Source: Patescibacteria group bacterium
GTDB lineage: Bacteria > Patescibacteriota > Patescibacteriia > Patescibacteriales > GWC2-42-12
Direction of reading: 5' to 3'
DNA length: 64,000 nucleotides
Assembly: GCA_041662965.1 (NCBI GenBank)
Contig: JBAZRI010000001.1
Span: forward strand, 163,680-227,679
Part shown: positions 20,471 through 60,040 of the stretch, in pieces
Layout: each line of letters opens with the position of its first letter
How positions within the stretch are numbered: position 1 is the stretch's first letter
Made by a program: the position numbers and the translations under genes
Notes under the pieces: generated by a model
The model's input: only the letters and a program-made list of their open reading frames with translations
The model's database searches: none
What the model was told of the DNA's origin: nothing

Positions 20471-20526
20471 AAATATACAACATGATGGTTGAGCTAAATT
20501 TATAAAATTTAGCTCAACCAATTATT

Positions 20527-21866: not shown

Positions 21867-22433
21867 ATGACAAAATATATTTTGCATGGCGGGGCCGCTA
21901 AGAAAGATACCATAGCTAATAAAAATTTTTTCTTTGAAATAGCTAATAATTTGCCGGATTCTAATAATATTCTTATCGTTTGTTATGCCAAAGAAAAAGA
22001 CAGTTGGCAGGAAGAGTTAGGAAAAGACAGACATAGGTTTTTCTCCGCCGCGCCGCAAAAGGCTTTTGATTTAATTTTAGCCGATGAAAATGCGAGCGTT
22101 TTTATTGAACAAATAAAACAGGCTGACGCAATTTATATGTGCGGCGGTAACACAAGTATTTTAAAAAAATATTTAGAGAAAATATCAAATTTAGAAAATT
22201 TATGGAAAGATAAAATTGTAGCCGGTTCATCGGCCGGCGCGTTGGTTTTGGCAAAATATTATTATGAAAACGACGATGACGCTTATGATAAAGGTCTAGG
22301 CATTCTGCCGCTAAAAATTATTTGCCATTACACGGAAGAACTAGCGGATAAACTTGAGCGATTAAAAAGGTATGGCGGAAAATTTGAAGTGCGGGTTATT
22401 CCCGAAGAAAAGTTTTTGATTATTGAGAGATAA
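21867..22433 (+). CDS. Peptidase S51 (dipeptidase E-like) family protein
   Basis: IYMCGGNT and the nucleophile elbow VAGSSAGALV are typical of S51 / class I amidotransferase-like folds. Confidence 0.65.
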   Translation: MTKYILHGGAAKKDTIANKNFFFEIANNLPDSNNILIVCYAKEKDSWQEELGKDRHRFFSAAPQKAFDLILADENASVFIEQIKQADAIYMCGGNTSILKKYLEKISNLENLWKDKIVAGSSAGALVLAKYYYENDDDAYDKGLGILPLKIICHYTEELADKLERLKRYGGKFEVRVIPEEKFLIIER

Positions 22434-22451: not shown

Positions 22452-23573
22452 ATGAATAATATAAATAAAAAAATTTATAAAATTTTATTAACCGGCGGTG
22501 GGACCGGCGGGTCGGTGGCGCCGCTTTTGGCCGTGGTGGAGGAGTTGAAAAATCAAGACGTCGGACGTCTTGAAAGACGTCCGACGTCTGGGGATTTTGA
22601 ATTTTTCTGGCTGGGTACGAAATTCGGTCCGGAACGTGAGATGGTGGAAAAGGCTGGTATTAAGTTTAAGGCGATAAGCGGCGGAAAATGGCGCAGATAT
22701 TTTTCTTTGAAAAATTTAGTTGATATTATTAAAATTAAACTGGGTTTTTTTCAGGCGTTATTCATCATGCTGAAATCACGGCCGGATTTGGTAATGAGCG
22801 CCGGCAGTTTTATTAGTGTGCCCGTGATCTGGGCGGCTTGGCTCCTCGGCGTGCCGGTTTTAATCCATCAGCAAGACATAATTCCCGGCTTGGCCAATAA
22901 GCTGATGGCGCCGTTTGCTAAAGCTATAACCGTAACTTTTGAAAAATCTTTAGCCGATTACGGGAAAAAAGCGGTGTGGATCGGCAATCCGACTAGAAAA
23001 AATTTTCAATTTTCCCTGCACAAGGCAGGACAAGCAATTTTCAATTTTCAATTAAATGCTAATTTGCCTGTTGTATTAATTGTGGGTGGCGGAACTGGAG
23101 CGGAAGCAATTAATAATCTAGCGTTCGAAAGCCTAGATGAATTTACGAAGTTTTGCCAGATTATTCACATAACAGGCAAAGACAAGGGGGTATTGAATGA
23201 TAATATTGCGAATTACAAAAAATACGAATTTCTTGACGCCGAAAAAATGGCGGGCGTACTGAATGCGGCGGATTTGGTGGTGACGCGCGCCGGGCTGGGG
23301 TTTTTATCCGAGTTGTCTTATTTAGGCAAGCCGTCTATAATTATTCCCATGCCGGATTCGCATCAGGAAGCCAACGCCGAGTTTTTTAAAAGTAAAAAAG
23401 CCGCGATTGTGGTTGATCAGAAATATTTAACCGCCGAAAGCTTTACCCACATGATAAAAGATCTGCTGTCTGATGAAAAATTGCGCGGCCGGCTGGCGGT
23501 AAACATGAAAAACGCCATGAAACAAGGGGCGAGCGAGGAAATGGTAAAAATTATTAAAAGTTTGTTTAAATAA
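22452..23573 (+). CDS. murG: UDP-GlcNAc:lipid I GlcNAc transferase
   Basis: LTGGGTGGSVAPLLAV, IGNPTR, VGGGTGA and VVTRAGLGFLSEL. Confidence 0.92.
   Translation: MNNINKKIYKILLTGGGTGGSVAPLLAVVEELKNQDVGRLERRPTSGDFEFFWLGTKFGPEREMVEKAGIKFKAISGGKWRRYFSLKNLVDIIKIKLGFFQALFIMLKSRPDLVMSAGSFISVPVIWAAWLLGVPVLIHQQDIIPGLANKLMAPFAKAITVTFEKSLADYGKKAVWIGNPTRKNFQFSLHKAGQAIFNFQLNANLPVVLIVGGGTGAEAINNLAFESLDEFTKFCQIIHITGKDKGVLNDNIANYKKYEFLDAEKMAGVLNAADLVVTRAGLGFLSELSYLGKPSIIIPMPDSHQEANAEFFKSKKAAIVVDQKYLTAESFTHMIKDLLSDEKLRGRLAVNMKNAMKQGASEEMVKIIKSLFK
22556..22589. repeat. Perfect 15-bp-arm hairpin inside the murG coding sequence
   Basis: agacgtcggacgtct-tgaa-agacgtccgacgtct. The same arms recur in an intergenic position at 31691-31723. 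Confidence 0.9.
23001..23053. repeat. aattttc-repeat / GC-hairpin element inside murG
   Basis: aattttcaattttc + cctgcacaaggcagg + aattttcaattttcaatt. The same heptamer repeats occur at 59913-59950. Confidence 0.6.
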
Positions 23574-23580
23574 AAATTAA

Positions 23581-23703
23581 TTGTCATTGCGAGGAGTCTC
23601 GTACTCGAGACGACGCGGCAATCTTTGGTTAAGTTCCGAGTACGTGAGATTGCCTGCCTACCGGTAGGCAGGCTTCGCTCCCTCCGGTCGCTCGCAATGA
23701 CAA
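23581..23703. repeat. MITE-like element with gtcattgcgag / ctcgcaatgac termini
   Basis: 13-bp terminal inverted repeats, an inner ggcaatct/agattgcc pair, and a perfect 22-bp palindrome gcctgcctaccggtaggcaggc. Same family as 33891-33995. Confidence 0.85.
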
Positions 23704-31519: not shown

Positions 31520-31618
31520 AAGGCTGGAAAAAATTATTTTTTCTGCTTAGACGAAATTTGTGCTCCCTACGGTCGCTACAATTTCGTATGCGCGATAAAA
31601 ATAATTTTTTCCAGCCTT
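31520..31618. repeat. MITE-like palindromic element, second copy of the 21682-21784 family
   Basis: Terminal inverted repeats aaggctggaaaaaattatttt / aaaataattttttccagcctt around the shared core. Confidence 0.8.
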
Positions 31619-31629
31619 GTTAAATTTTC

Positions 31630-31655
31630 GTCATCCCGGGCTTGACCCGGGATCC
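31630..31655. repeat. Short GC palindrome (gtcatcccgggcttgacccgggatcc)
   Basis: Hairpin atcccggg/cccgggat. Confidence 0.7.
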
Positions 31656-31690: not shown

Positions 31691-31723
31691 AGACGTCCGA
31701 CGTCTCCGAGACGTCGGACGTCT
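31691..31723. repeat. 15-bp-arm hairpin, intergenic copy of the murG element
   Basis: agacgtccgacgtct-ccg-agacgtcggacgtct, flanked by gcggcag/ctgccgc. Confidence 0.9.
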
Positions 31724-31810
31724 GCCGCTCATATTTTAGCACTCTCTCTTGACCCCGTACGCTCGCCAGGCTCGCTACGGGGCAGGCACGAGTGTTTTTT
31801 GATATCAAAA

Positions 31811-31837
31811 TTAGCACTCTTGACATAGGAGTGCTAA
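31811..31837. promoter_or_regulatory. CIRCE operator (HrcA binding site)
   Basis: A perfect TTAGCACTC-N9-GAGTGCTAA. Confidence 0.95.
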
Positions 31838-36424: not shown

Positions 36425-36445
36425 CCCCTCCTTGCTAAGGAGGGG
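36425..36445. repeat. Hairpin cccctcc-ttgctaa-ggagggg flanking the DUF559 gene
   Basis: 7-bp GC stem. Its partner hairpin lies at 36864-36886. Confidence 0.75.
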
Positions 36446-36459
36446 CTAGGGGAGGTGGC

Positions 36460-36891
36460 ATGGAAAAGGCAAAAAACAATTTAGTTTATAATCAGCCTTG
36501 TCTAAAAAGCATAAGAAAAAAATTAAGGCAGCAAGATATTCCCGCTGAAAAAGTGTTGTGGAATAAAATTAGAAATAAACAACTAAAATATAAATTTAGA
36601 AGACAATACAGCGTCGGCAGATATGTGCTTGATTTCTATTGTCCGAAAGTTAAATTAGGCATTGAAGTTGATGGAGCAACTCATGGCAATAAAATTGAAA
36701 TAAAAAAAGATATTGGAAAAGAAAATTTTATTAATCGGTTTGGCGTTAAAATAATTAGGTTTATCAATTTTGACATTTATTATGAGATTGATGGTGTTTT
36801 AACTGAAATAAATAGTCAATGTGAAAAAAGAGAAAGTGAATTAAAAACCAGACCTCACCCCAACCCTCTCCTTATCAAGGAGAGGGAGTAA
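36460..36891 (+). CDS. DUF559 (Vsr-like endonuclease fold) domain protein
   Basis: [43 protein letters not shown]......D..FGVKIIRF matches the DUF559 pattern. The C-terminal tail [13 protein letters not shown] is encoded by the palindromic repeat. Confidence 0.75.
36864..36886. repeat. Hairpin ccctctcc-ttatcaa-ggagaggg at the 3' end of the DUF559 gene
   Basis: 8-bp stem located inside the last codons of the ORF. Confidence 0.75.
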
Positions 36892-59912: not shown

Positions 59913-60040
59913 TAAGAAATTTTCAATTTTCAATTTTCAATTTTCAAACAATTTTCAAAGCTATAATTATTAATGAATTAATTTAATTAGAAATTAAAAC
60001 ATTAATTCATTGTTTAGAAATTAGAAATTAGAAATTGAAA
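59913..60040. repeat. Heptamer tandem repeats forming a ~125-bp imperfect palindrome
   Basis: (aattttc)x4 on the left and (gaaatta/gaaattg)x4 on the right, around the central inverted repeat aatgaattaat/attaattcatt. Confidence 0.8.

What the first reader, a model, noticed from the sequence alone, without database searches (positions are those of the whole stretch)
22556..22589. Perfect 15-bp-arm hairpin inserted in frame inside murG
agacgtcggacgtct-tgaa-agacgtccgacgtct encodes part of QDVGRLERRPTSGD. This sits between the conserved N-terminal G-loop helix and the FxWLGT strand, where E. coli MurG has only a few residues. The identical arms occur intergenically at 31691-31723 in the opposite order. 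A mobile palindromic unit has therefore landed in an essential gene without breaking the frame.
Basis: partly seen in the sequence, partly recalled or inferred. Interest (0 to 1): 0.6.

Follow-up and report, generated by a model that had tools for sequence, protein, structure and literature searches.

The report
REP palindrome pair inside murG
A 34-base perfect hairpin inside the essential cell-wall gene murG of an uncultured Patescibacteria bacterium is a pair of short "REP" repeats, a family that flanks RAYT transposase genes in other genomes, and it adds ten disordered residues to a surface loop without breaking the frame.

Summary
Window 22556-22589 is AGACGTCGGACGTCT-TGAA-AGACGTCCGACGTCT, a perfect hairpin with 16-nt arms, in frame in murG. 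The same two 15-mers lie between the PBP2 and hrcA genes at 31691-31723 in swapped order.

It is a real insertion. The three closest syntenic relatives lack exactly 30 nt (22560-22589). Two solved MurG structures need a 12-residue gap there. The AlphaFold model is disordered only at residues 38-46.

The 15-mer is a REP (repetitive extragenic palindrome). In a Moranbacteria-like MAG, in three metagenome contigs and in the isolate Neolewinella litorea, the same core flanks both ends of a RAYT (Y1/IS200-like) transposase gene. Other Patescibacteria RAYTs are flanked by co-varying 7-1-7 variants and also carry a copy in frame inside the gene.

The murG element is therefore a REP dimer. This MurG loop is a recurrent acceptor: 75 of 118 close homologues are expanded, with other palindromes or heptamer repeats.

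No RAYT gene was found in the 73 kb examined, so mobilisation in this genome is inferred. Intragenic REP dimers and Rickettsia RPEs are already described (PMC3733652). This is a new member of a known kind, of moderate interest.

The parts
22452..23573 (+). murG ORF (373 aa), the host gene
   Evidence: PF03033 and PF04101. The model matches P. aeruginosa MurG 3s2u with TM 0.78/0.87.
22556..22570 (.). REP unit 1, AGACGTC-G-GACGTCT. With its flanks TCA/TGA (22553-22573) it forms a 21-nt perfect palindrome.
   Evidence: The core is identical to the REPs that flank RAYT genes in L067, L236-238 and L101.
22571..22574 (.). Spacer TGAA, the hairpin loop
22575..22589 (.). REP unit 2, AGACGTC-C-GACGTCT, the reverse complement of unit 1
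22560..22589 (+). Net 30-nt (10-codon) insertion relative to the nearest relatives, encoding V37-S46 (VGRLERRPTS). The boundary can slide by a few bases because GAC precedes it.
   Evidence: DNA alignment A2; PDB alignments; pLDDT below 50 at residues 38-46.
31691..31705 (.). Intergenic REP unit, AGACGTC-C-GACGTCT
31706..31708 (.). Spacer CCG
31709..31723 (.). Intergenic REP unit, AGACGTC-G-GACGTCT. It completes the second dimer, of the opposite type, between PBP2 and hrcA. The dimer is absent from the same spacer in L205, L206 and L207.

Best explanation
The hairpin is a dimer of two 15-nt REP sequences (7-1-7 palindromes, AGACGTC-S-GACGTCT) in inverted orientation, resembling a very short REPIN or BIME. 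REPs of exactly this sequence are the cognate repeats of a clade of RAYT (REP-associated tyrosine, Y1/HUH, IS200-like) transposases that is common in Patescibacteria. The most likely history has three steps. A RAYT acting in trans on single-stranded DNA placed a REP, or a REP pair, into the murG coding strand. Alternatively one unit was doubled by fold-back copying. Because murG is needed for peptidoglycan synthesis, only an insert that was a multiple of three and free of stop codons, in a tolerant surface loop, could persist. The 15-mer has no stop codon in any of its six frames, and the insert adds ten hydrophilic, disordered residues between helix alpha-1 and strand beta-2 of the N-domain. 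The insert is best read as a tolerated passenger rather than an adaptation. Shown here: the insertion itself, its loop position, its membership of the repeat family, and the REP-RAYT linkage in other genomes. Inferred: that a RAYT did the mobilising in this genome, and that the insert has no function.
For: The insertion is absent from the three closest syntenic relatives, as a clean 30-nt gap. P. aeruginosa and A. baumannii MurG need a 12-residue gap at the same place. In the AlphaFold2 model (mean pLDDT 87.7) the only internal segment below 50 is residues 38-46, between H19-34 and E49-55, and the fold matches MurG 3s2u, 7d1i and 1f0k. In L067 a Y1_Tnp gene (PF01797, E = 1e-8) has ttgtAGACGTCSGACGTCTacaa 25 nt past one end and 15-28 nt past the other, plus one copy inside the gene. 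JGI names its homologues 'REP element-mobilizing transposase RayT', and they come mostly from Moranbacteria, Parcubacteria and Patescibacteria. L236, L237 and L238 come from three samples and show the same core on both flanks and inside the gene, with 6-7 copies in 6.6 kb. In Neolewinella litorea (L101) the RAYT gene 477-1073 is flanked by ggcAGACGTCSGACGTCTgcc at 430 and 1111. Other RAYT lineages carry co-varying REPs in the same three positions: GTAGGTGTCSGACACCTAC in L234 and TTGGACATCSGATGTCCAA in L239. In a genome scan cut off at 120 loci, 30 loci carry Patescibacteria-type names. In low-GC loci 31 of 46 cores have at least 3 further complementary flanking bases, against 6 of 82 in high-GC loci. 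The same core lies inside Pfam-confirmed housekeeping genes elsewhere: YchF, Dus, a Mur ligase, ArgRS, GAPDH, RNase J, glycosyltransferases and an AP endonuclease 2 family (xylose isomerase-like TIM barrel) protein. Dimers like this one occur in L108, L104, L043 and L237. The MurG loop holds other perfect palindromes in L125, L127, L165 and L130, and heptamer repeats in L202-204 and L164. It is expanded in 75 of 118 close homologues, and these expansions are scattered across a neighbour-joining tree. Intragenic REPs, more than half of them dimers, and head-to-head or tail-to-tail dimers with 1-2 bp spacers are documented in PMC3733652.
Against: No RAYT gene was found in the window by tblastn or by an HMM built from 120 homologues, nor in the 9 kb beyond its right end. 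Only two REP loci occur in 73 kb, a low copy number for a REP family. The four units here lack the GTAG tag (they read CAAG, AAAG, TAAG and CGAG). The two dimers are of opposite types and so are not copies of one element. There is no target-site duplication or other transposition footprint. In GAPDH (L059) and YchF (L012) the same core sits in the protein with no length change relative to solved homologues. Simple insertion does not explain those cases.
Confidence: 0.72

Rival explanations
1. The palindrome arose locally, without a transposase. A short seed at the site was turned into a perfect inverted repeat by fold-back or template-switch synthesis during replication or repair.
For: The element is a perfect palindrome. 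The two window dimers are G..C and C..G, which is what inverted duplication of a single unit in either orientation would give. There is no target-site duplication. Elsewhere the cores carry locus-specific palindromic flanks of 3-14 nt, which looks like outward palindrome extension. GAPDH and YchF carry the core with no length change.
Against: The relatives' empty sites offer only GAC|GG as a seed. The 15-nt core is identical to REPs that flank RAYT genes in unrelated genomes, and local copying cannot produce that identity. This process could explain the doubling of one unit, but not where the unit came from.
Confidence: 0.12
2. The motif is kept by selection or by biased uptake at the DNA level. 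It could be a DNA-uptake-sequence-like signal or a protein-binding site that spreads by recombination rather than transposition.
For: Saccharibacteria are naturally competent (PMC10633639). Uptake sequences in Neisseria and Pasteurellaceae occur inside genes (PMC2346458 and PMC2397512 listed; that they do so without length change and as inverted pairs is my own knowledge). The core replaces native codons without length change in GAPDH and YchF. The core is shared across distant Patescibacteria lineages.
Against: Density here is about one locus per 36 kb, far below the roughly one per kb of known uptake sequences. The motif co-varies with, and flanks, a transposase gene. Variant cores differ between genomes, and more than one family can occur in one assembly (L006 and L239).
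Confidence: 0.06
3. The insert is an adaptive change to MurG or to its mRNA. The extra basic loop could alter membrane or partner contacts, or the strong RNA hairpin could regulate murG expression.
For: The loop is expanded in most close homologues. The insert adds three arginines. The RNA hairpin is very stable, at -38.9 kcal/mol.
Against: Inserts at this site are unrelated at the protein level and are explained by DNA repeats. The segment is predicted to be disordered. On the sense strand the stem is not followed by the T-rich tail the scan requires, and a terminator-like call appears only on the antisense strand. The closest relatives do without the insert.
Confidence: 0.06
4. The insert is an assembly or library artefact.
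For: Perfect palindromes can be produced by chimeric reads. Reads were not available.
Against: Two assemblies of different lengths (294 kb and 131 kb) agree base for base. The insert is in frame. The same core occurs in many independent MAG projects and in an isolate genome.
Confidence: 0.03

Closest known systems
REP / REPIN / BIME elements with RAYT (TnpA-REP, Y1 HUH) transposases, together called 'REPtrons'
   Same: It is a short palindromic repeat dispersed in the genome. The units pair in inverted orientation to form a larger hairpin. The identical core flanks both ends of single-copy, syntenic RAYT genes in other genomes, and the repeat sequence co-varies with the RAYT lineage (PMC3733652, PMC3116915).
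   Different: The core is only 15 nt and the dimer only 33-34 nt, whereas PMC3733652 gives 20-40 bp per REP. The units in this window have no GTAG tag. Copy number is low. One of the two loci is inside a coding gene. Patescibacteria RAYT genes carry their own REP in frame. No RAYT was seen in the part of this genome that could be read.
Intragenic REPs (Di Nocera, De Gregorio and Rocco 2013, PMC3733652), for example in Opitutus terrae, Thauera and Rickettsia conorii RPE-4/RPE-6
   Same: REP units are inserted in frame in genes of known function. More than half are dimers. Head-to-head and tail-to-tail dimers with 1-2 bp spacers are reported. The authors argue that the inserts are tolerated rather than functional.
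   Different: Those dimers encode 20-30 residues, whereas this one encodes 10. They were reported mostly in replication and repair genes of Proteobacteria and Verrucomicrobia. Patescibacteria and murG were not among them.
Rickettsia palindromic elements (RPE)
   Same: They are palindromic repeats that invade both coding and non-coding DNA, are inserted in frame, and are compatible with protein folds. R. felis has 728 RPEs, 85 of them within ORFs (PMC1166351; PMC10969869).
   Different: The RPE elements first reported, described in PMC10969869, are about 150 bp and encode a conserved peptide. No dedicated transposase is known for them. They occur in a different phylum.
DNA uptake sequences (Neisseria DUS, Pasteurellaceae USS)
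   Same: They are short motifs found in genes and between genes. From my own knowledge, they often occur as inverted pairs and sit in coding DNA without length change, as the core does in GAPDH and YchF elsewhere.
   Different: They have roughly 30-fold higher density, no link to a transposase, and a fixed sequence per lineage. Uptake bias was not tested here.
Mitochondrial GC-cluster or 'byp' elements and phage T4 gene 60 bypassing (from my own knowledge)
   Same: They are small GC-rich hairpin inserts inside coding sequence.
   Different: Those interrupt the frame and are skipped by the ribosome. This insert is in frame and free of stop codons, so ordinary translation suffices.

Membership tests
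REP/REPIN-RAYT system | A short palindromic unit repeated at dispersed sites in a genome | tested here: met
   There are four identical 15-mers at two loci in the window. Other Patescibacteria genomes hold multiple loci, for example 5 in 4.9 kb in L067 and 6-7 in 6.6 kb in L236/237. Copy number in this genome is low: 2 loci in 73 kb.
REP/REPIN-RAYT system | A RAYT (Y1_Tnp) gene flanked by the same repeat on both sides | tested here: met
   This is met in other genomes with the identical core: L067, L236-238 and L101. Co-varying variants occur in L234/235 and L239/240.
REP/REPIN-RAYT system | A cognate RAYT gene present in the same genome | tested here: inconclusive
   tblastn and an HMM of 120 homologues found none in the 64-kb window, and none was called in the 9 kb beyond it. 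The rest of the genome, with a contig of 294 kb, could not be read.
REP/REPIN-RAYT system | A conserved GTAG tetranucleotide at one end of the unit | tested here: not met
   The window units are preceded by CAAG, AAAG, TAAG and CGAG. GTAG is present in the L067 and L234 REPs, while L236 has TTAG. So the tag varies within this family.
REP/REPIN-RAYT system | Two units in inverted orientation that fold as one hairpin (the REPIN or dimer form) | tested here: met
   Both window loci fold as perfect hairpins with arms of 15-16 nt.
REP/REPIN-RAYT system | Extragenic location | tested here: not met
   The murG copy is intragenic. Intragenic REPs are a documented minority (PMC3733652).
REP/REPIN-RAYT system | Cleavage and joining of the unit by RAYT on single-stranded DNA | not testable with these tools
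   This needs biochemistry.
Rickettsia palindromic elements | A palindromic element of about 150 bp that encodes a conserved peptide, found in Rickettsia (as described in PMC10969869) | tested here: not met
   The element is 34 nt. It has a different sequence and comes from a different phylum. The resemblance is in behaviour only.
MITE | Terminal inverted repeats of a parent IS element plus target-site duplications | tested here: not met
   There is no duplication at either junction, and the whole element is the palindrome.
DNA uptake sequence | Very high genomic density (about one per kb) and an uptake bias | tested here: not met
   Density is 2 loci in 73 kb. Uptake bias cannot be tested here.

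The most novel reading that the evidence does not exclude
In Patescibacteria, REP-type palindromes and heptamer tandem repeats may routinely colonise surface loops of core proteins, including the RAYT transposase's own gene and MurG. They sometimes overwrite native codons with no length change (GAPDH, YchF). That would imply a conversion-like or recombination-driven spread in addition to insertion, and would make these repeats a general driver of loop evolution in very small genomes with little intergenic space.
Probability: 0.2. Interest if true: 0.65.

Novelty: new member of a known kind. Interest (0 to 1): 0.4.

Why it matters
The result ties a compact 15-nt palindrome family in Patescibacteria to RAYT transposases. 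It shows that even an essential, conserved enzyme such as MurG accepts these repeats at a specific disordered loop. Three practical points follow. Such inserts should not be mistaken for assembly errors or for functional protein motifs. The MurG alpha-1/beta-2 loop is a natural permissive site. Peptides such as DVGRL, RRPTS and TSDV in candidate-phyla proteins are signatures of DNA repeats. The REP copy inside the RAYT gene, and the GAPDH and YchF cases with no length change, are leads for how REPs spread.

Tried and rejected
- Rfam at gathering thresholds and a tRNA scan of the window found nothing.
- A scan of viral contigs for the 15-mer gave 26 single hits. I judge this no more than chance, though that was not computed, so I did not pursue a phage origin.
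- Sense-strand terminator or attenuator: the scan calls a terminator-like site only on the antisense strand, where no gene reads in.
- Translational bypassing: not needed, because the insert is in frame and has no stop codon.
- Shared ancestry with L122/P0015. That relative has QDVVRPASSQ at the same site, and its DNA caagatgttgtacgtc matches unit 1 at 13 of 16 bases. It may be a decayed copy, but it is not sister to this MurG in the tree, so the point is left open.
- No exact copy of the core was found in about 420 kb of relatives' murG neighbourhoods.
- Searches for a RAYT gene in the window and just beyond it were negative.
- The look-up meant to extend the left end of the window found no record.
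- The genome-wide census was cut off at 120 loci, so the counts are a sample and not totals.
- Literature searches for palindromes in candidate-phyla genomes returned nothing specific.

Full report
**1. The observation**

Window 22556-22589 reads AGACGTCGGACGTCT-TGAA-AGACGTCCGACGTCT. The repeat finder gives perfect 16-nt arms with 2 nt between them. The element lies in ORF 22452..23573 (+), 373 aa, which is MurG (PF03033 and PF04101). Translation across it is K33-N-Q-D-V-G-R-L-E-R-R-P-T-S-G-D48.

The second copy, AGACGTCCGACGTCT-CCG-AGACGTCGGACGTCT, lies at 31691-31723 between the PBP2 and hrcA genes. GACGTCSGACGTC with up to two mismatches occurs only at these four places in 64 kb. Shuffles give a mean of 0.25, and one of 100 shuffles reaches four.

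The hairpin is very stable. As DNA it folds at -18.4 kcal/mol. In an 80-nt RNA context it folds at -38.9 kcal/mol. Both have z scores near -6.6.

Each 15-mer is itself a 7-1-7 palindrome. The two arms therefore differ only in the central base. The murG copy reads G..C and the intergenic copy reads C..G on either strand. So the two loci are different dimer types and cannot be copies of one 34-nt element.

An ENA assembly of different length is identical to the window over 21,122 bp, including the insert, and over a further 13,564 bp. Reads could not be examined.

**2. It is an insertion into a tolerant loop**

The organism is an uncultured Patescibacteria (CPR) bacterium, according to the names given by the source databases. 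The three closest MurG relatives are 74-76% identical and share the gene order mraY-ftsW-murG-...-PBP2-hrcA. They lack exactly 30 nt, 22560-22589, which is codons 37-46. P. aeruginosa (3s2u) and A. baumannii (7d1i) MurG need a 12-residue gap opposite DVGRLERRPTSG.

An AlphaFold2 model built from 47 homologues has mean pLDDT 87.7. Apart from the N-terminus, the only segment below 50 is residues 38-46, between helix 19-34 and strand 49-55. The model superposes on solved MurG structures, with TM 0.78/0.87 to 3s2u.

The same three relatives also lack the intergenic copy in their PBP2-hrcA spacers. Both copies are therefore specific to this lineage.

**3. The loop is a recurrent acceptor**

Among the 118 closest homologues that could be scored, 40 have the basal loop of 18 or fewer residues (mostly 16-18), counted from A27 to W53, and 75 have 20-53 residues. 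At the DNA level the extra segments in fetched relatives are other repeats:
- Perfect palindromes: CCCTCTCCTTG.g.CAAGGAGAGGG in L125, and the same arms in L127 and L165.
- A GTCATTGCGAG...CTCGCAATGAC composite element in L130.
- Heptamer tandem repeats: (TCGGAYK)n in L202-204 and (GTTACGA)n in L164.

On a rough neighbour-joining tree the expansions are scattered among unexpanded sequences, and the nearest neighbour, P0013, carries an unrelated insert. Several unrelated repeat families use the same loop. The simplest reading is therefore that selection filters for a permissive site, not that one element targets it.

**4. What the 15-mer is**

A scan of one genome per species for AGACGTCGGACGTCT stopped at 120 loci. 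Of these, 30 carry Patescibacteria-type names, including Saccharibacteria, Giovannonibacteria, Yonathbacteria, Nealsonbacteria, Staskawiczbacteria, Nomurabacteria, Paceibacterota and Minisyncoccia. Several genomes contribute more than one locus.

In low-GC loci the core usually sits inside a longer perfect palindrome with locus-specific outer arms. At least 3 extra complementary bases occur in 31 of 46 cases, against 6 of 82 in high-GC loci. Among those six are loci from Neolewinella and a Yonathbacteria MAG, where the core sits in extended palindromes.

The decisive lead was L067. An ORF at 393-1037 is an IS200-like Y1 transposase (PF01797, E = 1e-8). It has ttgtAGACGTCSGACGTCTacaa just beyond each end and once inside the gene. 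Its homologues number 6,681 at E <= 0.001. JGI names them 'REP element-mobilizing transposase RayT', and they come mostly from Moranbacteria, Parcubacteria and Patescibacteria.

Fetching three of these homologues showed the same arrangement each time:
- P0121, from three samples: ttttAGACGTCGGACGTCTaaaa 29 nt upstream, 23 nt downstream and inside the gene.
- P0140: the variant GTAGGTGTCSGACACCTAC upstream, inside and downstream.
- P0170: the variant TTGGACATCSGATGTCCAA upstream, inside and downstream.

In the cultured Bacteroidota isolate Neolewinella litorea, a RAYT gene (L101 477-1073) is flanked by ggcAGACGTCSGACGTCTgcc at 430 and 1111. The RAYT gene sits in a conserved neighbourhood, immediately upstream of a cation ATPase gene in all fetched loci and downstream of htrA and adk in several, as expected for single-copy, vertically inherited RAYTs.

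The core is thus a REP in the strict sense, the cognate repeat of a RAYT clade, and the murG element is a REP dimer.

**5. Comparison with what is known**

Di Nocera et al. 2013 (PMC3733652) catalogued GTAG- and CGTC-tagged REPs. They reported REPs inside genes in several species, more than half of them as dimers encoding 20-30 residues. They also reported head-to-head and tail-to-tail dimers with spacers as short as 1-2 bp.

Rickettsia RPEs are the classic in-frame case. R. felis has 728 RPEs, 85 of them in ORFs (PMC1166351; see also PMC10969869).

The present case fits that kind. It differs in four ways:
- Size: a 15-nt core and a 10-residue insert.
- The absence of a GTAG tag on the four units here.
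- The host phylum.
- The target, murG.

I found no paper describing REPs in Patescibacteria. The library searched is incomplete, so this is not proof that none exists.

**6. Mechanism, and what remains inferred**

Shown here:
- The insertion and its position in the loop.
- Identity of the core with RAYT-flanking REPs.
- Co-variation of the REP sequence with the RAYT lineage.
- Frequent intragenic placement of the core in Pfam-confirmed housekeeping genes elsewhere: YchF, Dus, a Mur ligase, ArgRS, GAPDH, RNase J, glycosyltransferases and an AP endonuclease 2 family (xylose isomerase-like TIM barrel) protein.

Inferred:
- That a RAYT moved the unit in this genome. None is present in the 73 kb that could be read.
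- That the dimer arose either by two insertions or by fold-back doubling of one unit.
- That the insert is a neutral passenger.

The 15-mer has no stop codon in any of its six frames. It reads RRRTS, DVGR or TSDV on one strand and RRPTS, DVRR or TSDV on the other. This helps to explain why it survives in coding DNA. The spacer TGAA creates a stop in one of the three sense frames, which is not the frame murG uses.

**7. What does not fit**

In GAPDH (L059) and YchF (L012) the core, with its palindromic flanks, occupies the protein with no length change relative to solved homologues. Plain insertion does not explain this. Either a deletion compensated for the insertion or the sequence was converted in place.

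The relative L122 has QDVVRPASSQ at the murG site, with DNA that resembles a decayed unit. It is not sister to this sequence.

These points keep open a smaller role for template-switch or recombination processes. They are the basis of the more novel reading given separately.

**8. Verdict**

The element is a REP dimer of a RAYT-associated family, inserted in frame into a disordered and repeatedly used MurG loop. It is a new member of a known kind and of moderate interest.

Noticed in passing
L067:393-1037; L236:3001-3642; L234:3001-3648; L239:240-875: Patescibacteria RAYT genes carry their own cognate REP in frame inside the coding sequence. It lies in an insertion of about 22 residues before the HUH motif that the Neolewinella RAYT lacks. 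The internal copy co-varies with the two flanking REPs (GACGTC, GGTGTC or GACATC types).
   Followed up: partly
L059:3076-3090 (GAPDH); L012:2882-2896 (YchF): The same REP core, with palindromic flanks, sits in conserved enzymes with no length change relative to solved homologues. Native codons were replaced rather than added to, which simple insertion does not explain.
   Followed up: partly
window 23035-23053: A heptamer tandem repeat, (CAATTTT) x 2.7, lies inside murG at a second variable site after GNPxR and encodes FQFS. Homologues carry other heptamer-derived peptides there (ATRNSQL, NYELRI, PNPKSQ, SDVGFRM), and the site length ranges from 17 to 51 residues.
   Followed up: partly
window 23583-23701: A composite GC-rich palindromic element begins a few bases after the murG stop codon. 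Its ends are GTCATTGCGAG...CTCGCAATGAC, with an inner perfect palindrome GCCTGCCTACC/GGTAGGCAGGC at 23652-23673. The same family is inserted in frame in the MurG loop of relative L130.
   Followed up: partly
window 36425-36445, 36460-36891, 36864-36886: A DUF559 endonuclease-like gene (Pfam E = 2e-27) sits between dnaK and dnaJ. It is bracketed by palindromes that resemble Shine-Dalgarno and anti-Shine-Dalgarno sequences: CCCCTCCTT.gct.AAGGAGGGG and CCCTCTCCTT.atc.AAGGAGAGGG. The second palindrome is the one found in frame in the MurG loop of L125, L127 and L165.
   Followed up: partly
window 31736-31795 and 31811-31837: An intact CIRCE operator (TTAGCACTC-N9-GAGTGCTAA) lies upstream of hrcA at 31811-31837. 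A second CIRCE-like left half at 31736 is followed by a GC-rich segment (ccccgtacgctcgccaggctcgctacgggg) and a degenerate right half, as if a duplicated operator had been interrupted.
   Followed up: partly
window 31520-31618 and 31630-31655: A long hairpin of about 100 nt follows PBP2 (AAGGCTGGAAAAAATTATTTTT...AAAAATAATTTTTTCCAGCCTT), and there is also a hairpin GTCATCCCGGGCTTGACCCGGGATC. Both have counterparts in relative L207, in a different order.
   Followed up: no
window 20486-20520: A perfect AT-rich palindrome with 16-nt arms (TGGTTGAGCTAAATTT.ata.AAATTTAGCTCAACCA) ends 7 nt before the ftsW start codon. It looks like an operator.
   Followed up: no
window 59918-59947 and 60014-60040: Intergenic heptamer tandem repeats, (AATTTTC) x 4.3 and (TTAGAAA) x 4. 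The first unit is the same as the heptamer inside murG site 2.
   Followed up: no
window 22589-22556 (minus strand): On the antisense strand the hairpin is followed by TGATTTTTCA and is scored as terminator-like. No gene reads into it from that side.
   Followed up: no
window 21867-22433; L205:6708-8286: The ftsW-murG gap varies between relatives. It holds a Peptidase_S51 gene here, an OTCase gene plus a HigB/HTH pair in L205, and nothing in L206.
   Followed up: no
L067, L104, L115: MAGs labelled 'uncultured Bdellovibrionales' have 39% GC. The closest named homologues of the L067 RAYT gene are from Moranbacteria and Patescibacteria, so the taxonomic label may be wrong.
   Followed up: no
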